Positions 9,686 through 54,848 of a stretch of 64,000 nucleotides of DNA are shown here, one piece after another; positions within the stretch are counted from its first letter, which is position 1, and every line of letters starts with the position of its first letter. Below the pieces are notes generated by a model, which was not told the origin of the DNA, made no database searches, and saw only the letters and a program-made list of their open reading frames with translations. Both the position numbers and the translations under genes were made by a program. The DNA is from a phage: the NCBI GenBank assembly GCA_038314665.1, contig GCA_038314665.1_3677.1. One strand, 5' to 3'.

Positions 9686-10292
9686 TCTGTATTTCTCCTA
9701 CCACAAACGGCCCCACCTGGCAAGTGGAATAATTGACTAGCCATCAATCCCACACACTGTACAAACATACATGTAAAATAACTATTGCATAATTTTTCAT
9801 TGTGTGGTAGCAGGGCCATTTTTACCCGTTTTCTCTCTCAAAATTGCACGTAATGCCGCTATTGCACAAAATTTAACCTGATGCATATCTTCAATAGCTT
9901 GTCAACAACTAAAAATCTTTATAAGTCATACACTTACACACTCACAAAAGCGTGTTCTACGTGAAAAATCGAGTATAACTATAGCCGCCAGATCTCAGAA
10001 TTTACGTACGTTCACCATTCTATAGTCTGCTAAGTATTTATTCCAACCATAGAATAATGGAATAGTCAATACCTGCATAAAATAATTATTCGTATAAACT
10101 GCATAACATAAATCAGCTTAGGTGTCAACATTTTTCGTAAACAGCCTGAAATTATCACGGTGAGTTATCATAAACAGAGAAATCTTTAGTCGTCTAATGT
10201 TTACTGTACATTACTATACTTACTGGAATCATTAGATGACTAAGAGAAAGATAAGAAATAATTAACAATACAATTATTTTATATGTAACAAT

Positions 10293-10483
10293 AAGGCAAC
10301 TATGCAAACGAATGGCATGGCGCGACGGAGTCGCGACATAATATAAAAGCAGTAACCATCACCCCCGTGATAGTTTGTCTGCAATCTATTAATCAGATCA
10401 TAGTTGCCTTGTATTTAGTTAATCATGACATAACAAGCAAGGCAACTATAGATCTGCTAATAGTTGCCCTGCTTTTATATTAT
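10293..10483. repeat. nested inverted-repeat / hairpin cluster
   Basis: GGCAACTAT and ATAGTTGCC alternate four times; 15-bp inverted repeat ATAATATAAAAGCAG / CTGCTTTTATATTAT; palindromes CGCGAC..GTCGCG and GTGACTAAAGGTCAC; flanked by 20-bp direct repeats ATGCAAACGAATGGCATGGC (10303) and ATGCAAACGAATGTCATGGC (10609). Confidence 0.6.
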
Positions 10484-10629
10484 GTCATAGAAACACCCGA
10501 AGGGGTGACTAAAGGTCACCTGGCATAGCCAGTGAAAGATTATTAACCTGCTAATTGTCAGCTTATTGGCTGTTAGCTTGTCAATTGTTAACTTGTTAAT
10601 TGTTATCATGCAAACGAATGTCATGGCTT

Positions 10630-10800
10630 ATCATTTTTGTGTAAACAGTCAATCATGTAAATGATAAGTATGTGAACAGTTATCCATGTAAACTATTAGA
10701 TATGTAAACTATCGGTTATGTAAACAGTAAGAGCGTGAACAGTAAAGGGAGTGAATAGTAATAGCGTGAATAGTGACAGCGTAAACAGTCAGGCATGTCA
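10630..10800. repeat. tandem degenerate short repeats (ATGTAAAC / GTGAACAGT / GTGAATAGT units)
   Basis: at least ten units, roughly 11-14 bp period, visible by eye; non-coding. Confidence 0.6.
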
Positions 10801-11363
10801 ATTATGTTTAATGTGCCCAGTATGTCAAAGGTGTCATGTTATGTCACTATTGTGTCAGACAAGTTTTTCTCCTCTTTGTCAAGTGCTGCATGAAAAATTT
10901 ACAATCTGGTATGGTAGCATTTTTGCGGCCCTGTTTACATTCAGTTGTGTATGTATAATCCTTGTTGTGCGGGCGTTTGGACGTCTAGATGGTTGGAAGT
11001 CTGCAGGTCAATATCTAATCTATCGGCTGTTAACTATATCCCACACAAATAGTAAGAAATATAATTGTTATATGCGTAAACAGTAACTCATGTTATCAAT
11101 CCCTGTATGTATCGCCAGTGGTGCGCATAATGGGTATTATGTTAAATTGCCCGTAATGATAACTATTCTCACAATGATAGGTATTCTCATTCAATCCCAC
11201 AAGATAGGTTGCAAATGTTGTGCCACTGTGTGAACGGCCTCACCTATTAATTTGCCACACTGCCCCGATATTTGAGAATTGTTATAAGAATGAGAAGTAT
11301 TCCCATTTCGTCCGCCTGGCAGCACTCCAGTCGCTACCGCTTATGACAGGGCAGAGCTAGACC

Positions 11364-11512
11364 CTCTTCAGATATTTCTGGCTGACTCTTCAGGTCTGTG
11401 TGGGAAAAGCCAATCTCTCCGGCGGCGGGGAGGGGGTCAATTAAAAAATTTATGTGGTGTATGAAGCGCTCTTCAGGTAAGGCATGTATTATGGGATGAA
11501 ACCCTCTTCAGG
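11364..11512. repeat. cluster of CTCTTCAGG motifs
   Basis: copies at 11364, 11386, 11469 and 11504, with further copies at 11894 and 12544; interleaved G-rich GGCGGGGAGGGGGT (11421) and CCCGGCGGGGCAGGGG (11566). Confidence 0.5.
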
Positions 11513-12253
11513 TGATGATATTTGTGGGTGTGATATTTGCTGGAAAGTCAGATATGACGGGACTCCCGGCGGGGCAGGGGTAGTACAGACAGGGAAAATA
11601 TGGGGATGTAGTTGGGGAAATTGATCAGACAGGTGGAGTATAGTATATGTTACAAGTATGTTAAATAGAGAGGTTTAATATCTGTAAGATTTGTGTGTAA
11701 AATCAAAGACTTAAGTGGTGTTGTGGTATTTTCTATAAATAATTCAAGTTTAATAGGGAATATTTGTCAGAAAGGCAGGTTCAGGTTATTTAAAGTGGTA
11801 TTTCAGATGCATGTTTACAGAAGCAGGTAACCCCCCTCCCCCTTCGGCTACCATTCACCTTTTCCTCTGACTGGTACTTAAACACTTATTCAGACTCTTC
11901 AGGTTATCACCCATATATCATATGGCAGTGACTGGTGTCCTCCGGCCCCTCTTTCGTCACCCGTCCGCTTCGCCATGCTAATGCCATAGCCAGTGGTTCG
12001 GTTGTTCACCCTGTTCACTCAGGTGTATCTCCATACCCCTTCAAACCGAAGAGAACAGAAAACCCGAATTACTCGGTAAAAGAAAAGAGAAGAACTTAAT
12101 TTTATCAGGATAGGCAAGAATGTCAAGGCATGACTGCTCACTAAACAAGCAAACAGTCATGTGTGGGAGGTAAGTGATTGTGGTGGTAGGAAATTTAGTT
12201 GAAAGATGTGTTATGGGTGCTCCCAGCACTTTAGCCGGGCAATTAATTGTGTG

Positions 12254-45208: not shown

Positions 45209-46492
45209 TCATTCCAGAACCTCCCAAGTGTCTGGGTTAACATTTCGGACGCAGATACCGACAGGGAATTGGTAGTTGTTGTCTTCTGTCCTTGATTGAT
45301 ATTTGAAGGTGACAAACTTGCCGATCATTTCCTGCATCCTGTCATAGCTACGCTCCTCGTGCGTGCCTTTCATCTTCATTTTAACAATAACACCTTCCTT
45401 GTCAACACAGATAAGAACACCTTCGTCATTCTTATCTTTCTCAACGTCAATAACTTTCACCTCTGCGTCGTTGAACTTTTTCCATTTCAATGCTTCAGAT
45501 GTTCGCTGACCGTACTCGTATTTACCGCAGAAATTACGCATGATAGTACCTTCATATCCTTCGGACATGAATATACCAACAGAGTCTTCGCAATGATCAA
45601 CTGTGTACGCAAGCTCTGCGTCAACAACCTTGATATGATCAAGCATCAGAGTGGTAACGGTATCCTCTGCATCCATAAGATCCTTGCAGCGTCCAGACTC
45701 TGTTTCTGGATCCCACCACACCTTGTCGCTAGGAATATCAAAAATGTGATACTCCAGATCGTAGCTACAGTACCCACCGTAACGCAAATCATCACGAACA
45801 GGCTCAACATCGACAGGAATATCTACCTTGTTGAAGTTTTTATATGTTGATAAGCCTGCCTTAATTGCGGCATGACGGCGTTTTTTATCTGCCTCATAGT
45901 CTTTATCGATCTCGGCCTGAATCTCTTCTTGTGTGCGCCACCGTTTAGCAAGAGATACTATTTTCTGCAAAGGAAGACCATGAATGTATAGTTCCCCATC
46001 AAGTTGTTTAATCCCAGTGGTAGAATGGAAAGAACGAAGTTGCTCTAAAAGCTTTCCTTGAATAGGGTAGGACTTATTACCACGGGAAATAAATTTAGGC
46101 TCACCATTTTGGAAAACAACAAGCAGACGAAGGCCATCTAACTTACGCAAGATCCAGCAAGGTAATTTAAGTGCCTTGCCACGCTTCAGGTAGTCATGCA
46201 CCAGCATGGGTAAAAGGTCAACACCCTGCTCGCAATCTTCCATGTTTTCAACATACCCCAGACGGACTTGTTTTTCCCACTTACTGATCGCTTCCAGCTC
46301 GGCCTGTTGCTCAGCTGTAGTTTCATTGGCACGACCAACGTTCTTAGGTGTGCAGATCGTCTCTTTGTATTGCAGTTTACCATCAAGCTTGCCAAACTCT
46401 ACGATAACCTTATCACCATCCGTGAATACTTTCCACTGTTGGTAGCTGCCATCTTTATTCAGTGCGTACAGTGTTGTTTTGATCTGATGCAT
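45209..46492 (-). CDS. ATP-dependent DNA ligase (427 aa)
   Basis: nucleotidyltransferase motif I KLDGLR. Confidence 0.65.
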   Translation of the reverse strand: MHQIKTTLYALNKDGSYQQWKVFTDGDKVIVEFGKLDGKLQYKETICTPKNVGRANETTAEQQAELEAISKWEKQVRLGYVENMEDCEQGVDLLPMLVHDYLKRGKALKLPCWILRKLDGLRLLVVFQNGEPKFISRGNKSYPIQGKLLEQLRSFHSTTGIKQLDGELYIHGLPLQKIVSLAKRWRTQEEIQAEIDKDYEADKKRRHAAIKAGLSTYKNFNKVDIPVDVEPVRDDLRYGGYCSYDLEYHIFDIPSDKVWWDPETESGRCKDLMDAEDTVTTLMLDHIKVVDAELAYTVDHCEDSVGIFMSEGYEGTIMRNFCGKYEYGQRTSEALKWKKFNDAEVKVIDVEKDKNDEGVLICVDKEGVIVKMKMKGTHEERSYDRMQEMIGKFVTFKYQSRTEDNNYQFPVGICVRNVNPDTWEVLE

Positions 46493-47056: not shown

Positions 47057-47118
47057 AACTAACTACCTCACTGCATACTTTCCATAATAAGTAAAGCCGG
47101 GTAATCCCGGCTATGTTG

Positions 47119-47832
47119 TTAAATATACTCTGTTACATCCTTGAAGCTCGAAGGCTTCATAATCTTACCTTTACTGTCAAGGAATATAATAACTTTATTG
47201 CCGTTGTAGAACTCCTCTTTAGCAACGAAACCTTCGTAGCGACCACCAAAACGACGCTCAAGATCTTTAATCTCCAACTCGATGAGTTGTTCAGCAGGCA
47301 TATCTGCACTGGCACCGTGTGAATGCCGTAGATGGTTGATCCGTGCAAACTTACTGTCATTAGATTTTAGAACCTTCCGCATCATCCCACACACATCCCC
47401 GCTAAGCTGGAACAGCAAAGCTGTTGACAACTCTGCTAAGCGGTAAGCTGACGCTCTTTGCTTGGATGTGTTTTTCGCAGCGATCAGTGTATCATAGAAC
47501 TCACCGATCTTGAACTTAAGACCTCGTGGATTATCAAACAGGTTTGACCACTTTTCGTGATTGTCATTAACAAGATAAGCTGCATAACTTGTGACAACGT
47601 GAAGATCGCAGGCCTCTTTTAGCAGGTGATCTCCACCATCACCTTTCTCCAGCTCTTCCAAAACCTCATTGAACTCTTCCTCAATGAAGCTAAGCTGTAA
47701 TTCGAATGGTGTGTATGATTTCTTCACTTTAGCTGCCACACGGTTCCAGTTTTCCACCCAGTTGGCAGACCAAAGGTAGTTTTCAGGCTGAGACAGTTTT
47801 TCCAGGTTGTCGATCAGTTTAGTATTTAGCAT
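47119..47832 (-). CDS. putative MazG-like NTP pyrophosphohydrolase (237 aa)
   Basis: EExxE-type helix FIEEEFNEVLEELEKGD; weak assignment. Confidence 0.4.
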   Translation of the reverse strand: MLNTKLIDNLEKLSQPENYLWSANWVENWNRVAAKVKKSYTPFELQLSFIEEEFNEVLEELEKGDGGDHLLKEACDLHVVTSYAAYLVNDNHEKWSNLFDNPRGLKFKIGEFYDTLIAAKNTSKQRASAYRLAELSTALLFQLSGDVCGMMRKVLKSNDSKFARINHLRHSHGASADMPAEQLIELEIKDLERRFGGRYEGFVAKEEFYNGNKVIIFLDSKGKIMKPSSFKDVTEYI

Positions 47833-47846
47833 TAAAAGGTCACCTC

Positions 47847-48608
47847 TTACAGTTCCATAAAGTTTTCTACAGTTTCAATAAATTCTTTATCAGAGAAAGC
47901 GTCAACAGCACCGTTAAACCATACAGGGATCCCGCGATCCTCATATTGATAAAGGTCGCTACGTGAAATGCCACTTCCATCTGCACTCTGCGAATCATAC
48001 TTGTTTACAATCAGCAGTTTTGTGCCTTTACAAGTAGCAGGAAACAATTCCCAGTTAAAATTAATAACTGTGTTAGAACAACCTACCAGGATCACCATAT
48101 CATTGCTGGTAAGAGATGTCAACAGGTCATACATGTCTGTATACTTAGGAGCAACCTCACCGAAGAACACTACATTGGGCTTAACCCAGGTATACTTGCC
48201 TGTATCTACCTCAGTGTATCCGATATTTTTAATTACATCATTACCTTCAGCATCTTCGTAGGTGATTTCAGGCAAATACCCGTGGACATGTAAAATATCT
48301 TCATGTTTTACACCAGCACGCTCCAGCAAATCATCTACATTGGTAGTAAGGTTGATTACACGACCAGACCAGCGGGAATACCACTCAGCGATCCGAAGAT
48401 GTGCAAGGTTAGGATCAACACTGCCAAGAGCTACACGACGTGCATTGTAAAAGTCATGCACCTTATAGTAGTTCTTGGCAAAGGTGTGGATATTGCACAC
48501 CTCATCGATGCTGAAATTCTCCCACATTGCAGTGCTACCAGATCGGAAAGTGGGAATACCAGATTCAGCGCTCAAACCAGCACCGGAGATAATAATCAGT
48601 CGTCGCAT
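47847..48608 (-). CDS. Sir2-family NAD-dependent deacylase / ADP-ribosyltransferase-like protein (253 aa)
   Basis: Sir2 motif ISGAGLSAESGIPTFRS. Confidence 0.65.
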   Translation of the reverse strand: MRRLIIISGAGLSAESGIPTFRSGSTAMWENFSIDEVCNIHTFAKNYYKVHDFYNARRVALGSVDPNLAHLRIAEWYSRWSGRVINLTTNVDDLLERAGVKHEDILHVHGYLPEITYEDAEGNDVIKNIGYTEVDTGKYTWVKPNVVFFGEVAPKYTDMYDLLTSLTSNDMVILVGCSNTVINFNWELFPATCKGTKLLIVNKYDSQSADGSGISRSDLYQYEDRGIPVWFNGAVDAFSDKEFIETVENFMEL

Positions 48609-48616
48609 AAGTGTCC

Positions 48617-48967
48617 TCAGTAGATGTTTTGTTTAATCTCTATTCCAAACTTCTTGAATGAGTCAGCAGCAAGCATAAATTTACGAGCTGCCGATGGATT
48701 AGAAGTATGCACGAAAATAATCACGTTGTCAATAAGTGGTGGCTTTCCGAATACAAGTTTCTCCTCTAGCGCAGAGAAGCAGTCGTACCCTTCAAACACT
48801 TCACCTAGATCATTGTCAAAATACCACTCAGATACGCGTCTGTAGAGCTTTCTCTTATCATTAAGAAAATCCATAAACTCAGAAGAATTCTTTAGCCACA
48901 GAGCGTCTGGGAGTCCATAATCTGACGGATCTCTAAAATCATCAAGCCACACAATCCACTTCTTCAT
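48617..48967 (-). CDS. hypothetical protein (116 aa)
   Basis: coupled ORF. Confidence 0.45.
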   Translation of the reverse strand: MKKWIVWLDDFRDPSDYGLPDALWLKNSSEFMDFLNDKRKLYRRVSEWYFDNDLGEVFEGYDCFSALEEKLVFGKPPLIDNVIIFVHTSNPSAARKFMLAADSFKKFGIEIKQNIY

Positions 48968-49899
48968 TGCATATAGTCCTCGTTGTGGAAATAGTAGTCC
49001 AGTATCTCACGACGCTCCTGCTCTAATAAGCAATTCCACACATCTTCTGTATAGTTGCTACGAATAAATTTTACCATACCGTAAAACTCTTCGTCAACAC
49101 GTTTAAAGATATCATCATCCCAAATCTTCCAAGCTTTACCCCTCATTACGGCCTTCCGTGCCAGATAGTATGGAGACTTGATCTTCAGCTGCAGATCATA
49201 AGGGTAGTAAGGCTTACGAATCATATACCCTTCACCTCTTGTTTCTGCAGCTAATTCTTTTGCATAGCTGAACGGAATTTCACGCACAGTGTGAGGACGT
49301 TTTGCACCAAGGTATTTGGCAATCCCATCTAAAGCTGCTTCTGGTAGCATTATTCCAGAATCATTATATCTGCAACCTATCAAATATGCGCCATGATCTT
49401 CCTGAACAATATGCGGATCTGAAGGGTGGCAAATTTCAAACATGAATGTCATGTTTTCATTGCCCATAACCTTCTTGATAAGATCTAAATTACCACATTG
49501 CTCCCTGATGGTTTCTTTTGCGAGGTTACAATATGGGGAATCAAGAGACCCGGTTGTTGAGAACAACAGTTCACCTTTATGAGATGATACCACACCGAGG
49601 AATCCGTTCTTTTTCTCTACCGCAGTAACAAGTTTACTGTCCGGTAGGTTGGTGGAGTTTTCTCCTAAGTTGAATACTTTTGTGAAAGGCCATGCCACAA
49701 CATTCCCCTCATTGCCAACAACAATACCTCGGCACTCCAGTAAACGCGGAGACAAATGCCACAGATTGTTGTAGAATACTTTTCTGGCATATTTATAGAT
49801 CTTTAATCCAAGATCTGGATAATACCGACTGGTTACAAGACCTTTGTCTACTAGGTCATCTGCATTAAAATACTTCATCATACGTTCCTCATTTGTCAT
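48964..49899 (-). CDS. RNA ligase, T4 Rnl1-like (311 aa)
   Basis: LLECRGIVV and EKKNGFLGVV resemble T4 RnlA ALECRGIMF and the KEDGSL adenylation motif. Confidence 0.6.
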   Translation of the reverse strand: MTNEERMMKYFNADDLVDKGLVTSRYYPDLGLKIYKYARKVFYNNLWHLSPRLLECRGIVVGNEGNVVAWPFTKVFNLGENSTNLPDSKLVTAVEKKNGFLGVVSSHKGELLFSTTGSLDSPYCNLAKETIREQCGNLDLIKKVMGNENMTFMFEICHPSDPHIVQEDHGAYLIGCRYNDSGIMLPEAALDGIAKYLGAKRPHTVREIPFSYAKELAAETRGEGYMIRKPYYPYDLQLKIKSPYYLARKAVMRGKAWKIWDDDIFKRVDEEFYGMVKFIRSNYTEDVWNCLLEQERREILDYYFHNEDYMQ

Positions 49900-49999
49900 T
49901 TTGTCAGTCTATCTTGCCACACAAATAACCTAGTGTCAACACTTGAAATTAACAAAACAGTTAGGTATACTATCATTAAAATTAAAACGGAGGATTGCT

Positions 50000-50410
50000 A
50001 TGTCTAAAATGCTATATATCGTGCGTGGTCTGCCAGGGTCTGGCAAATCAACACTGGCAAATGCGCTATCTTTAGAAGGCCTGTATCCACATTTTGAGAA
50101 CGACATGTTCTGGTATGACGATGACGGCAATTACAACTGGGATGCAAGTAAAGTAACACTCGCAGCAAAATGGTGCAAAGATAACGTAGAAGATATGATG
50201 CGTATGGGATACGACCGTATCGTGGTAAGTAATACGTTTACAAAAGAAAAACATGTGCAGGAATATGTTGACATGGCAATCAGTCATGGGTATAGTTATA
50301 CCGTGATCGTGGTTGAAAACCGCCACGGTAATAAAAGCATTCATGATGTTCCAGACAAGATTGTGGATCGTATGGAACGCCAGCTTAAAAACTGCATTAA
50401 ACTTAAATGA
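50000..50410 (+). CDS. polynucleotide 5'-kinase domain protein (136 aa)
   Basis: start taken at the ATG with GGAGG RBS; P-loop GLPGSGKST as in the T4 Pnk kinase domain GCPGSGKST. Confidence 0.65.
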   Translation: MSKMLYIVRGLPGSGKSTLANALSLEGLYPHFENDMFWYDDDGNYNWDASKVTLAAKWCKDNVEDMMRMGYDRIVVSNTFTKEKHVQEYVDMAISHGYSYTVIVVENRHGNKSIHDVPDKIVDRMERQLKNCIKLK

Positions 50411-50417
50411 GGAATGT

Positions 50418-50972
50418 ATGAAATACTTTGTAACAAGCGATACGCACTTTCTCCACCAGCGGGTCATGGAGTTTGAGTCATGTCAAAAACACAGATCTCA
50501 GTATGATCACAATCTTGATAGTATGAATGCTGGAATCATCACCGAGTGGAACTCTGTTGTGTCACCTGCAGACACTGTGTTCCACCTGGGAGATATTGCG
50601 TGCACTAATGATAAGAATATCAACAACTTACTTCCAGATATTCTAAATATGTTGAACGGACATATTATTCTTGTTCGTGGCAACCATGACACAAGAACGA
50701 CTGTCAGAATTATGAAAGAGTTCGGTCATGAGGTTGTAGATTATTACGAGCTTCGCCACAACAAGAATTTGATCTGTATGAGCCATTACCAGTTTGCAAA
50801 GTGGAACAGAAAGCCTCACGGATCAGTCCAACTGTTCGGTCATGCTCACGGAACCACACAACAGTTGTTTGGCAGGCAGCTTGATGTCGGTTGGGATGTG
50901 TGGGGGAGACTCTTACCATTAGAAGAGGCATACCGTATTGCAATGAGTTTTGATATTGACAGCAGGGAGTAA
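50418..50972 (+). CDS. calcineurin-like metallophosphoesterase (184 aa)
   Basis: start taken at the ATG after AGGAA; DxH...GD...GNHD metallophosphatase motifs. Confidence 0.6.
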   Translation: MKYFVTSDTHFLHQRVMEFESCQKHRSQYDHNLDSMNAGIITEWNSVVSPADTVFHLGDIACTNDKNINNLLPDILNMLNGHIILVRGNHDTRTTVRIMKEFGHEVVDYYELRHNKNLICMSHYQFAKWNRKPHGSVQLFGHAHGTTQQLFGRQLDVGWDVWGRLLPLEEAYRIAMSFDIDSRE

Positions 50973-51019
50973 TCCCTGCTATTTTAAAGAAAATTGCCAC
51001 ACAAGGAGAATCAGGAGAT

Positions 51020-51370
51020 ATGAAAGATGGGGATAAGCTGCTATATCTTAAAGTCCCCCTTGAAATACTATCTATGTCAAAAGTTTTGAATGACACAACT
51101 GGGGAGGTTGTTGTTCTTGACTTGTATGACAAGATTGTATACTGCTACCTGCACAACTGGTATAAGCTTGGAGGAAATTCACACTTCACACCAAGCACAA
51201 GGAAAATTGCAGCAGATGTTGGGATAAAGAAAACAAAAGCAGCAGCGTGCGTTAAAACTTTAGAATGTGCAGGAGTTGTTGAAACATCCACACAAGGGAG
51301 AGGTAAAAGATGCACATTTTCCAAAGTTTTGCCACCAGAAGAAGTTATTCGAATGTCAACAACTGGTTAG
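51020..51370 (+). CDS. putative DNA-binding protein (116 aa)
   Basis: helix-turn-helix-like STRKIAADVGIKKTKAAACV; lies just upstream of the iteron array. Confidence 0.45.
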   Translation: MKDGDKLLYLKVPLEILSMSKVLNDTTGEVVVLDLYDKIVYCYLHNWYKLGGNSHFTPSTRKIAADVGIKKTKAAACVKTLECAGVVETSTQGRGKRCTFSKVLPPEEVIRMSTTG

Positions 51371-53908: not shown

Positions 53909-53983
53909 GCCCTGTTAGCTTAGTGGATAAAGCAGCGGCCTTCTAAGCCGTTGACACTGGTTCGAGTCCAGTACGGGGTGCCA
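53909..53983 (+). tRNA. tRNA-Arg (anticodon TCT)
   Basis: manual cloverleaf: acceptor GCCCTGT/ACGGGGT, anticodon loop CTTCTAA, T-loop TTCGAGT, encoded CCA. Confidence 0.75.
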
Positions 53984-54113
53984 AGTTCTTTTTAATGTAG
54001 CTTACTTTAGCAGAGTAAATCTTCGGCAAGTGGCGGTAACCACTTTACCGATACCTCATAGTTAGTGGTGAGAACACTAGCTATTTTAAAAAGAATTTAA
54101 ATATTAGTATTTA

Positions 54114-54201
54114 GGTGAGTTAATTCCGTAGGGGTAGCGGGGCAGACTGTAAATCTGTTATCATTGCGATTCGGGTGGTTCGACTCCATCACTCACCACC
54201 A
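54114..54201 (+). tRNA. tRNA-Tyr (anticodon GTA)
   Basis: acceptor GGTGAGT/ACTCACC, anticodon loop CTGTAAA, long variable arm, CCA. Confidence 0.8.
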
Positions 54202-54315
54202 AATTTATATTTTTAAATGCATAAATCATACAGATAATGGCATTGATATTTATCGTCGTTTATACTAGTCACTAACTGCTCGAAAATCAGTGTCATTATC
54301 AGTATAATTTATAAA

Positions 54316-54406
54316 GGAGGGTAGGGAGCAATGGTGCTCAAGCGGTCTTGAAAACCGTCCCATTGAGGATGACTCGATGATGGTTCGATTCCATTACTCT
54401 CCGCCA
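54316..54406 (+). tRNA. tRNA-Ser (anticodon TGA)
   Basis: acceptor GGAGGGT/ACTCTCC, anticodon loop CTTGAAA, long variable arm, CCA. Confidence 0.75.
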
Positions 54407-54504
54407 CATTGTTGACCTTGTAATTAAGCGAAAGCCGGAAGCAGAACCGGATTATCAAATGTTACAGTCGTCATCGCCGACTAGCAACATGGTCAACATA
54501 CTGA

Positions 54505-54603
54505 GCTAGGTAAGCCCTTTGGCAAGGGCGAGGATTTTTAATCCTGAAAATAGACGAGGTAGTCGTTGAATACATAGGTGGTTCGATTCCACCGCCTAGC
54601 ACC
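54505..54603 (+). tRNA. atypical tRNA-like gene (99 nt), anticodon possibly TTT
   Basis: acceptor GCTAGGT/GCCTAGC and T-arm GGTGG-TTCGATT-CCACC are clear; loop TTTTTAA on a short stem; about 30 nt between anticodon arm and T-arm. Confidence 0.4.
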
Positions 54604-54608
54604 TTTTT

Positions 54609-54684
54609 GCTGATGTAGCACAATTGGCAGTGCAATTGATTTGTAATCAATAGGTTGCAGGTTCAAGTCCTGCCATCAGCACCA
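54609..54684 (+). tRNA. tRNA-Thr (anticodon TGT)
   Basis: acceptor GCTGATG/CATCAGC, anticodon loop TTTGTAA, T-loop TTCAAGT, CCA. Confidence 0.8.
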
Positions 54685-54685
54685 A

Positions 54686-54760
54686 GGCCCTGTAGCTGGA
54701 AGGTTCAAGCAAGCGACTCATAATCGCCAGACGGTGGTTCAATTCCACCCAGGGCCACCA
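54686..54760 (+). tRNA. tRNA-Met (anticodon CAT; elongator Met or Ile2 type)
   Basis: acceptor GGCCCTG/CAGGGCC, anticodon loop CTCATAA, CCA. Confidence 0.7.
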
Positions 54761-54771
54761 AATGGTAAATA

Positions 54772-54848
54772 CTCCGCGTAGCTCAGCTTGGTAGAGCGCC
54801 TGATTTGGGATCAGGAGGTCGAGTGTTCGAATCACTCCGTGGAGACCA
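54772..54848 (+). tRNA. tRNA-Pro (anticodon TGG)
   Basis: acceptor CTCCGCG/CGTGGAG with C1-G72, anticodon loop TTTGGGA, T-loop TTCGAAT, CCA. Confidence 0.8.

What the first reader, a model, noticed from the sequence alone, without database searches (positions are those of the whole stretch)
48964..50972. Split RNA healing-and-sealing module: Rnl1-like ligase, stand-alone 5'-kinase and metallophosphatase
A T4 Rnl1-like RNA ligase (minus strand) sits divergently next to a P-loop polynucleotide kinase (GLPGSGKST) and a calcineurin-like metallophosphoesterase. Together these supply the three activities of the T4 Pnkp plus Rnl1 tRNA-repair pathway, but the kinase and phosphatase are separate genes and the phosphatase is a metallophosphoesterase rather than the T4 HAD type. 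With the tRNA cluster 3 kb downstream, this suggests a counter-defence against host anticodon nucleases of the PrrC/RloC type.
Basis: partly seen in the sequence, partly recalled or inferred. Interest (0 to 1): 0.65.

Follow-up and report, generated by a model that had tools for sequence, protein, structure and literature searches.

The report
Phage rV5 RNA-repair gene cassette

Summary
The window is a Vequintavirus (99% identical to phiWec193; rV5 gp076-gp081). It encodes an Rnl1-family RNA ligase (48964-49899, minus strand), a 136-aa P-loop kinase (50000-50410) and a 184-aa metallophosphoesterase (50418-50972). All catalytic motifs are intact. Folds are nearest T4 Rnl1 and fungal Trl1 for the ligase, and T4 and Clostridium polynucleotide kinases for the kinase.

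Context supports an RNA heal-and-seal function. Of 80 phage contigs carrying this ligase, 74 have the kinase and 62 the phosphoesterase within 8 kb, mostly as one operon. Relatives exist as kinase-ligase, ligase-kinase, phosphoesterase-ligase and kinase-phosphoesterase-ligase fusions. The kinase-phosphoesterase pair also partners Rnl2-type RNA ligases, and rarely DNA ligase.

Iyer et al. 2022 (Viruses 14:1977) already describe this neighbourhood, naming phage V5, as a predicted NAD-linked RNA-repair system, and BASEL records annotate the genes. Transposon data for Vequintavirus Bas54 show all six genes are dispensable on E. coli K-12.

The PrrC-type counter-defence role is plausible but unshown. 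RloC damage is expected to resist such repair. Verdict: real, ordinary, already known as a prediction.

The parts
48964..49899 (-). Rnl1-family ATP-dependent RNA ligase (rV5 gp078). The ORF is 311 aa; the likely true start is Met7 at 49881, giving 305 aa. The motif I lysine K96 (KKNG) is encoded at 49612-49614.
49900..49999 (.). Divergent intergenic spacer between the leftward (ligase) and rightward (kinase) transcription units. It contains sigma-70-like sites at 49943-49971 and 49949-49976 (+) upstream of the kinase.
   Evidence: Consensus scan only. The GC-skew sign change and the cumulative minimum fall here. No promoter function has been shown.
50000..50410 (+). Stand-alone 136-aa P-loop polynucleotide 5'-kinase (rV5 gp077). 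The P-loop GLPGSGKST lies at 50027-50053, and the putative general base is Asp35.
   Evidence: AAA_33 at E 3e-10 and PHROG 505 'polynucleotide kinase'. The family profile hits Pnkp1, T4 Pnk, PSTK and CthPnk. hhalign to the T4 Pnkp kinase domain gives 96% probability, E 4e-9, with Asp35 aligned to T4 Asp35. The AF2 model has pLDDT 86.6. Foldseek's best matches are CthPnk and T4 Pnk at TM 0.72-0.79, against 0.45-0.6 for small-molecule kinases.
50418..50972 (+). 184-aa dinuclear metallophosphoesterase (rV5 gp076), the predicted 2',3'-cyclic phosphodiesterase / 3'(2')-phosphatase. Its start is 7 nt after the kinase stop.
   Evidence: Metallophos_2 and Metallophos both pass their cut-offs. The full motif set is present: D8-x-H10, G58-D59, G88-N89-H90, H123, G141-H142-x-H144. 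The closest solved relative is Aquifex aq_1665 (1XM7), E 2e-23 with the family profile. The gene lies within 8 kb of the ligase in 62 of 80 phage loci.
48617..48967 (-). cREC (cyclic-phosphate-processing receiver-like) protein, 116 aa (rV5 gp079). Its start overlaps the ligase stop (ATGA).
   Evidence: PF20274 at E 1e-13. A Rec-like acidic pocket is conserved: D9 D10, D51-N-D53, T88/S89, K96. No solved relative is found by sequence.
47847..48608 (-). Sir2-family (sirtuin) protein, 253 aa (rV5 gp080), in the same leftward operon.
   Evidence: PF02146 at E 7e-28 and PHROG 2162. It scores below the NCBIfam CobB cut-offs. Iyer et al. 2022 predict it to be a KptA/Tpt1-like remover of RNA 2'-phosphate.
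47119..47832 (-). MazG-like nucleotide pyrophosphohydrolase candidate, 237 aa (rV5 gp081), the last gene of the leftward operon.
   Evidence: The only hit is PHROG 671, E 2e-21, and it is partial. There is no Pfam, NCBIfam or PDB hit. Iyer et al. 2022 call it MazG superfamily.
47095..47112 (.). GC-rich 7-bp hairpin directly after the MazG-like stop codon. It is the probable end of the ligase-cREC-Sir2-MazG transcription unit.
   Evidence: Terminator-like site in the scan on both strands. This is a consensus match only.
53909..54848 (+). tRNA gene cluster of 8 tRNA-like genes, including an aberrant 97-nt Lys(UUU)-like element at 54505-54601. It is a possible functional partner in evading tRNA-targeting defences and is not physically part of the module.
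   Evidence: ARAGORN and Rfam. The association with the repair genes is inferred only.

Best explanation
This is an RNA end-healing and sealing cassette of a Vequintavirus. Host or competitor endoribonucleases leave a 2',3'-cyclic phosphate and a 5'-OH on cut RNA, most plausibly in tRNA anticodon loops. The metallophosphoesterase opens and removes the cyclic or terminal phosphate to give a 3'-OH. The 136-aa kinase phosphorylates the 5'-OH. The Rnl1-type ligase is adenylylated on Lys96 and joins the 3'-OH to the 5'-PO4. In the rV5 lineage the ligase is co-transcribed with cREC, a sirtuin and a MazG-like enzyme. These probably handle 2'-phosphate or ADP-ribose-linked by-products, or provide an alternative NAD-dependent clean-up route. 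What is shown: domain identities, intact active sites, folds, conserved linkage, and fusions. What is inferred: the substrates, the order of steps, and the biological target.
Against: No member of this roughly 300-aa ligase clade, of the 130-aa kinase family or of the aq_1665-like phosphoesterase family has been assayed. The ligase falls far below the T4 RnlA equivalog cut-off (37.6 vs 242 bits). After motif V it has only about 65 residues, where T4 Rnl1 has a tRNA-specificity domain of about 120 aa, so tRNA preference is unproven. T4 Lys119 is a Thr here. The phosphoesterase is not of the CthPnkp/lambda-phosphatase subfamily. No target nuclease is known for rV5-like phages. cREC, Sir2 and MazG accompany the ligase in only 11-13 of 80 loci, so their role in repair is uncertain.
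Confidence: 0.72

Rival explanations
1. The cassette runs a Trl1/Tpt1-like pathway rather than a T4-like one. The phosphoesterase or cREC opens the cyclic phosphate to 3'-OH/2'-PO4. The ligase needs or tolerates the 2'-PO4. The sirtuin then removes the junction 2'-phosphate using NAD+, and cREC and MazG clear the ADP-ribose cyclic phosphate and nucleotide by-products. This is a sub-variant of RNA repair; the sirtuin part was proposed by Iyer et al. 2022.
For: The sirtuin, cREC and MazG-like genes share an operon with the ligase, and cREC overlaps the ligase stop. Trl1-LIG aligns over more residues than T4 Rnl1 (281 vs 248; Foldseek TM 0.63-0.68 vs 0.57-0.60). Motif I is KxNG, the Trl1 form as I recall it, whereas T4 has KEDG.
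Confidence: 0.15
2. The kinase and phosphoesterase heal DNA ends (3'-phosphate, 5'-OH nicks) for the phage ATP-dependent DNA ligase during replication or repair, and the RNA ligase association is incidental.
For: T4 Pnkp also acts on DNA (established knowledge). A DNA ligase lies 2.5 kb away (45209-46492) and occurs within 8 kb in 42 of 80 ligase-anchored loci. The phosphoesterase has weak similarity to PdeM, a ligase-associated DNA-damage-response enzyme (20.9 bits, cut-off 150).
Against: Anchoring on the kinase finds the DNA ligase in only 2 of 80 loci, against RNA ligases in 43 of 80. All observed fusions are to the RNA ligase domain. Adjacency to the RNA ligase is immediate.
Confidence: 0.06
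3. The phosphoesterase, kinase and NAD-linked enzymes act on small molecules (cyclic nucleotide or ADP-ribose-derived immune signals, nucleotide pools) as an anti-signalling counter-defence, and do not act on RNA ends.
For: Metallophosphoesterases, cREC, sirtuins and MazG all have small-molecule-processing relatives. Iyer et al. discuss cREC in ADPr-derivative processing.
Against: The kinase fold and profile matches are specifically to polynucleotide and tRNA kinases. The tight linkage and fusion to RNA ligases is unexplained by a small-molecule role.
Confidence: 0.05
4. The ligase serves mainly as a tail-fibre attachment catalyst, like T4 gp63, as many GenBank records name it.
For: The name is carried over by annotation from T4 RnlA.
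Against: The relation to T4 RnlA is distant (about 19% identity, 37.6 bits vs a cut-off of 242). The Bas54 ligase tolerates transposon insertions, whereas the T4 rnlA N-terminal domain does not. Operon partners are RNA-end enzymes, not tail genes.
Confidence: 0.02

Closest known systems
Sirtuin-centred phage RNA-repair neighbourhood, type 2, 'prototyped by Escherichia phage V5 and Proteus phage Mydo' (Iyer, Burroughs, Anantharaman, Aravind 2022, Viruses 14:1977; PMC9503650)
   Same: It is the same locus: sirtuin, T4-like tRNA ligase, cREC, nucleotide kinase, MazG and a calcineurin-like phosphoesterase, predicted to clean up and ligate RNA ends bearing 2',3'-cyclic phosphates.
   Different: That paper centres on the sirtuin and calls the phosphoesterase 'occasional'. 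In my samples the ligase-kinase-phosphoesterase triad is the widespread core (62-74 of 80 loci), and sirtuin, cREC and MazG are lineage-restricted add-ons (11-13 of 80). It remains a prediction, with no biochemistry.
Phage T4 Pnkp (PseT) + Rnl1 (gp63) tRNA-Lys repair pathway that counters PrrC
   Different: The kinase is a stand-alone 136-aa protein with no fused HAD phosphatase. The phosphatase is a separate dinuclear metallophosphoesterase. The ligase is shorter (305-311 vs 374 aa), with about half the C-terminal region, has KKNG instead of KEDG, and lies far below the T4 RnlA equivalog cut-off. No PrrC link has been demonstrated.
Bacterial Pnkp/Hen1 RNA repair (Clostridium thermocellum Pnkp: kinase-metallophosphoesterase-ligase)
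   Same: It uses a P-loop polynucleotide kinase together with a metallophosphoesterase as the 2',3'-cyclic phosphodiesterase/phosphatase (PMC2190708). The kinase fold matches CthPnk (TM 0.76). Close relatives of the rV5 ligase occur as tri-domain proteins in the same kinase-phosphoesterase-ligase order.
Fungal/plant tRNA ligase Trl1 (ligase-kinase-CPDase) with Tpt1
   Different: Trl1 uses a 2H cyclic phosphodiesterase and a GTP-dependent kinase fused in one protein, and needs Tpt1 to remove the junction 2'-PO4. Here the end-healing enzyme is a metallophosphoesterase, and 2'-PO4 dependence is untested.

Membership tests
Rnl1-type ATP-dependent RNA ligase (Pfam PF09511; T4 Rnl1 / Trl1-LIG clade) | Covalent nucleotidyltransferase motifs: I (KxxG, adenylylated Lys), III (E), IV (EG), V (KxK), plus the Rnl1-specific Arg54 and Lys75/Phe77 equivalents | tested here: met
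   K96-K-N98-G99, F154-E155, E223-G224, K239-x-K241, R57-G58 and K74/F76 are invariant in 43 family members. They align with T4 K99, E159, E227/G228, K240/K242, R54 and K75/F77. The exception is T4 K119, which aligns with T116.
Rnl1-type ATP-dependent RNA ligase (Pfam PF09511; T4 Rnl1 / Trl1-LIG clade) | Passes the curated family threshold, and the fold is nearest to Rnl1/Trl1 rather than to other ligase clades | tested here: met
T4 RnlA equivalog (NCBIfam TIGR02308) | Whole-protein score above the equivalog cut-off, and the C-terminal tRNA-specificity domain of about 120 aa | tested here: not met
   The score is 37.6 bits against a cut-off of 242. Sequence alignments to T4 Rnl1 end at motif V (T4 residue about 248). 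Only about 65 helical residues follow here.
Rnl1-type ATP-dependent RNA ligase | ATP-dependent sealing of 3'-OH/5'-PO4 RNA (tRNA anticodon-loop nicks) | not testable with these tools
   This needs enzyme assays.
Polynucleotide 5'-hydroxyl kinase clade of P-loop kinases (T4 Pnk, CthPnk) | P-loop GxxGxGK(S/T) and a general-base Asp about 20 residues downstream | tested here: met
   G10-LPGSG-K16-S-T18 is present. The invariant Asp35 aligns with T4 Pnk Asp35.
Polynucleotide 5'-hydroxyl kinase clade of P-loop kinases (T4 Pnk, CthPnk) | Fold and profile closer to polynucleotide/tRNA kinases than to nucleotide or metabolite kinases | tested here: met
   Profile hits are Pnkp1, T4 Pnk, PSTK and CthPnk. 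Foldseek TM is 0.72-0.79 to CthPnk, T4 Pnk and PSTK, against 0.45-0.6 for gluconate, shikimate and adenylate kinases.
Polynucleotide 5'-hydroxyl kinase clade of P-loop kinases (T4 Pnk, CthPnk) | Substrate-binding and lid arginines (T4 Arg38, Arg126) | tested here: inconclusive
   No Arg sits at the position aligned to T4 Arg38. The near-invariant Arg108 (ENRHG) may be the lid arginine, but the alignment there is gapped.
T4-type bifunctional Pnkp | Kinase fused to a DxDxT (HAD) 3'-phosphatase domain | tested here: not met
   The protein is 136 aa and kinase-only. The phosphatase is a separate metallophosphoesterase.
Dinuclear metallophosphoesterase superfamily (calcineurin-like) | Signature motifs DxH, GD, GNH(D/E), H, GHxH | tested here: met
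   D8-x-H10, G58-D59, G88-N89-H90-D, H123 and G141-H142-x-H144 are conserved across 33 phage homologues. Both Pfam models pass their cut-offs.
CthPnkp / lambda-phosphatase-type RNA 2',3'-cyclic phosphodiesterase-phosphatase | Sequence membership of that subfamily (TIGR04075 phosphatase region, or PrpE/ApaH/lambda-like) | tested here: not met
   There is no hit to TIGR04075 at E <= 0.01. The nearest solved relative is aq_1665 (1XM7). Activity on RNA ends is not testable here.
Bacterial Pnkp-Hen1 RNA repair system | Single kinase-phosphatase-ligase polypeptide with an Rnl4-type ligase and an adjacent Hen1 methyltransferase | tested here: not met
Iyer et al. 2022 type-2 sirtuin RNA-repair neighbourhood (phage V5 prototype) | Sirtuin linked to a T4-like ligase, cREC, nucleotide kinase and MazG (with or without a calcineurin-like phosphoesterase) | tested here: met
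   All six genes lie contiguously at 47119-50972. The window is 98-99% identical to rV5-group genomes. The description is in PMC9503650.

The most novel reading that the evidence does not exclude
In the rV5 lineage the cassette may be a bacteriophage analogue of the eukaryal Trl1-Tpt1 pathway. On this reading the Trl1-like ligase (KxNG motif I, 281 residues superposable on Trl1-LIG) seals ends that retain a 2'-phosphate. A sirtuin, not a KptA/Tpt1 enzyme, removes that phosphate with NAD+. cREC and MazG clear the by-products. This would be the first RNA 2'-phosphotransferase activity for a sirtuin. The sirtuin part of the idea was already proposed by Iyer et al. 2022; the 2'-PO4-dependent ligase is my addition.
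Probability: 0.12. Interest if true: 0.65.

Novelty: already known. Interest (0 to 1): 0.27.

Why it matters
tRNA-cleaving immune systems such as PrrC, PARIS, retron/PtuAB and Cas13 are now recognised as common. T4 remains the only phage with a proven tRNA-repair answer to them.

This cassette belongs to a much larger, untested family. The ligase profile finds 8230 proteins at E <= 1e-3 in the library of 50%-identity cluster representatives, and the ligase is present in 762 isolated phage genomes. Biochemical and genetic proof in a tractable coliphage such as the BASEL Vequintaviruses would extend the T4 paradigm. It could also supply compact new RNA-end enzymes: a 136-aa kinase and a 305-aa ligase.

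As a genome-scan finding it adds nothing new. The genes are annotated and the neighbourhood is published.

Tried and rejected
- **Single-sequence PDB searches.** Searches with the ligase and with the kinase found nothing meaningful. Family profiles were needed.
- **cREC and MazG-like proteins.** The cREC profile and the MazG-like sequence have no solved relatives by sequence.
- **Short-intron idea.** ARAGORN called a 4-base anticodon in the 99-nt tRNA-like gene. I asked whether it carries a short intron that would need a splicing-type ligase. I rejected this because the covariance-model alignment puts the extra ~26 nt in the variable arm and leaves an intact UUUUUAA anticodon loop.
- **Bacterial Pnkp/Hen1 membership.** Rejected: the ligase type is wrong, there is no Hen1, and the genes are split.
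- **DNA-end repair role.** Judged unlikely, because kinase-anchored loci carry RNA ligases (43 of 80) and not the DNA ligase (2 of 80).
- **Tail-fibre attachment role.** Judged unlikely from the Bas54 transposon data.
- **Search limits.** The word-indexed search for the phosphoesterase returned only 84 proteins and was not used further.
Full report
**Identity of the window.** The 2.4-kb region around the finding is 97-99% identical to more than 100 rV5-like coliphage genomes (genus Vequintavirus). The best match is phiWec193 at 99.2%. In phage rV5 the genes are gp076-gp081. BASEL records such as Bas49 (MZ501062) already label them 'RNA ligase', 'polynucleotide kinase', 'putative phosphoesterase' and 'sirtuin domain NAD-dependent deacetylase'.

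**Checking the observation.**
- The 311-aa minus-strand ORF 48964-49899 passes PF09511 (RNA_lig_T4_1) at E 9e-15.
- The 136-aa ORF 50000-50410 carries GLPGSGKST. It matches AAA_33 (E 3e-10) and the PHROG 'polynucleotide kinase' family.
- The 184-aa ORF 50418-50972 passes both calcineurin-like phosphoesterase models.

Both rightward genes have GGAGG/GAGGA ribosome-binding sites and are 7 nt apart. The ligase most likely starts at Met7 (49881), which follows a GAGGA sequence, as BASEL annotates it. My residue numbers use the 311-aa ORF.

**The ligase.** A single-sequence search of the PDB found nothing. A profile of 43 family members hits T4 Rnl1 at E 1e-12, and hhalign gives 97% probability across the nucleotidyltransferase domain. 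Residues invariant in the family align with T4 residues as follows:
- R57/G58 with T4 R54
- K74/F76 with K75/F77
- K96-x-N98-G99 with motif I (K99)
- F154/E155 with motif III (E159)
- E223/G224 with motif IV
- K239/K241 with motif V

**The kinase.** The family is very large. More than 8000 word-index hits were found, mostly stand-alone proteins of about 130 aa. Its profile finds Pnkp1, T4 Pnk, PSTK and Clostridium thermocellum Pnk in the PDB. It aligns with the T4 Pnkp kinase domain at 96% probability, with the invariant Asp35 on T4's general base Asp35. The model (pLDDT 86.6) superposes best on CthPnk, T4 Pnk and the tRNA kinase PSTK (TM 0.72-0.79). Small-molecule kinases reach only 0.45-0.6.

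**The phosphoesterase.** It has the full dinuclear-metal motif set. Its nearest solved relative is the uncharacterised Aquifex aq_1665 (1XM7, E 2e-23 with the profile). It is not the lambda/PrpE-like phosphatase of CthPnkp. That such enzymes can do RNA 2',3'-cyclic phosphodiesterase and phosphomonoesterase chemistry is established for CthPnkp and lambda phosphatase (PMC2190708).

**Context evidence.** I fetched 80 IMG/VR loci encoding ligase relatives and searched their ORFs with iterated HMMs.
- The kinase is within 8 kb in 74 loci and the phosphoesterase in 62. They usually form contiguous same-strand operons, ordered phosphoesterase-ligase-kinase or kinase-ligase-phosphoesterase.
- The divergent layout of the window occurs only in the rV5 lineage.
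- In about 13 loci the kinase and ligase are one ORF. Pfam confirms the AAA_33 + RNA_lig_T4_1 fusion in the two of these that hit both models (L055, L049).

A search of 1.84 billion representative proteins with the ligase profile found 8230 relatives at E <= 1e-3. They include kinase-ligase, ligase-kinase and phosphoesterase-ligase fusions. They also include many 700-812-aa proteins with kinase, phosphoesterase and ligase in that order. The N-terminal halves of these tri-domain proteins resemble bacterial Pnkp but score far below its cut-off.

Anchoring on the kinase instead (80 loci) gives a complementary picture.
- The phosphoesterase is present in 50 loci and directly adjacent in 26.
- An RNA ligase is present in 43 loci: Rnl1-like in 23 and Rnl2-like in 27.
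- The DNA ligase is present in only 2.

The kinase-phosphoesterase pair therefore behaves as a portable end-healing unit for RNA ligases. This argues against a DNA-repair or small-molecule role.

The ligase stop overlaps the start of a cREC ('cyclic-phosphate processing receiver') gene (48617-48967; PF20274, E 1e-13), which has a conserved Rec-like acidic pocket. A Sir2 gene (47847-48608) and a MazG-like gene (47119-47832) follow. A GC-rich hairpin at 47095-47112 probably ends the operon. These three genes accompany the ligase in only 11-13 of the 80 loci, all of them large Vequintavirinae-like phages.

[quoted passage not shown] They predict that it cleans up 2',3'-cyclic phosphate RNA ends for ligation, with the sirtuin acting like KptA/Tpt1 (PMC9503650; cREC is defined in PMC7824862).

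I found no biochemical or genetic study of these proteins. A transposon-sequencing preprint on Vequintavirus Bas54, which has the same gene order, gives mean insertion counts in its supplementary tables: 88-110 for cREC, 192-259 for the ligase, 171-211 for the kinase, 140-184 for the phosphoesterase and 406-443 for the sirtuin. Essential structural genes score about 0. The T4 rnlA N-terminal domain is essential in the same study. The cassette is therefore dispensable on E. coli K-12. This fits a conditional counter-defence role, and it argues against the 'tail fibre attachment' label copied from T4.

**Mechanism and target.** The best-supported mechanism is classic heal-and-seal: the phosphoesterase removes the cyclic or terminal phosphate, the kinase adds the 5'-phosphate, and the ligase joins the ends. 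The substrates and the host nuclease are inferred. PrrC-type nicks are a reasonable target. [quoted passage not shown]

The tRNA cluster 2.9 kb downstream is real. It includes a Lys(UUU)-like gene, and tRNA-Lys(UUU) is PrrC's substrate. However, the cluster is separated from the module by unrelated genes, and any cooperation is speculative.

A Trl1/Tpt1-like variant, with 2'-phosphate-dependent sealing and a sirtuin as 2'-phosphotransferase, is not excluded. I give it about 0.12-0.15.

**Verdict.** The novelty class is 'already known' as a computational prediction and in database annotation. Interest is low to moderate (0.27). Its value lies in the fact that this very abundant family of compact RNA-repair enzymes has never been tested experimentally.

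Noticed in passing
window 54505-54601 (+): This is an aberrant 97-nt tRNA-like gene. It has a UUUUUAA anticodon loop (Lys, UUU), a weakened anticodon stem and a class-II-like variable arm of about 27 nt. Rfam scores it 31 bits (cut-off 29). It folds as a cloverleaf with z = -3.7. It is conserved in about 120 rV5-genus genomes and is annotated variously as tRNA-Lys, tRNA-OTHER or nothing. tRNA-Lys(UUU) is the PrrC/PARIS target, so it may be a cleavage-resistant substitute or a decoy.
   Followed up: partly
window 54114-54198 (+): ARAGORN misses a tRNA-Tyr(GUA) gene that the Rfam tRNA model finds at 39 bits. This brings the cluster to 8 tRNA-like genes.
   Followed up: partly
window ~9800-12250: This stretch of about 2.4 kb is almost free of ORFs and lies between convergent gene blocks. 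It has the lowest GC of the window and several 15-18-bp tandem repeats, and it is unannotated in Bas49. The Bas54 transposon study reports no insertions in 'the ~2 kb intergenic' region, which is probably this one. It is a candidate essential non-coding element or origin.
   Followed up: no
window ~48000-50000: The GC skew changes sign and the cumulative skew reaches its minimum at the ligase/kinase divergence point. The cassette therefore straddles the genome's main switch between leftward and rightward transcription. A DUF6945/HTH 'replication initiation protein' gene follows at 51020-51370.
   Followed up: no
GenBank records MG0656xx (e.g. MG065654, MG065666), matched to window 48600-51000: Eighteen unannotated records named 'Campylobacter phage' are about 98% identical to E. 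coli rV5-like phages across this region. They look like mislabelled or contaminant Vequintavirus genomes rather than true Campylobacter phages.
   Followed up: no
window 49881-49899 (-): The longest ligase ORF starts at 49899, but that ATG has no Shine-Dalgarno sequence. Met7 at 49881 follows GAGGA and matches the N-terminus of the family consensus. The real product is probably 305 aa, as in BASEL records, whereas RefSeq rV5 uses the 311-aa start.
   Followed up: yes
IMG/VR loci L086-L089 and kinase-anchored loci L090-L169: The same small kinase and metallophosphoesterase pair, often with overlapping stop and start codons, sits next to Rnl2-type (PF09414) RNA ligases in many freshwater and marine phage contigs. 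Some contigs carry both Rnl1-like and Rnl2-like ligases.
   Followed up: partly
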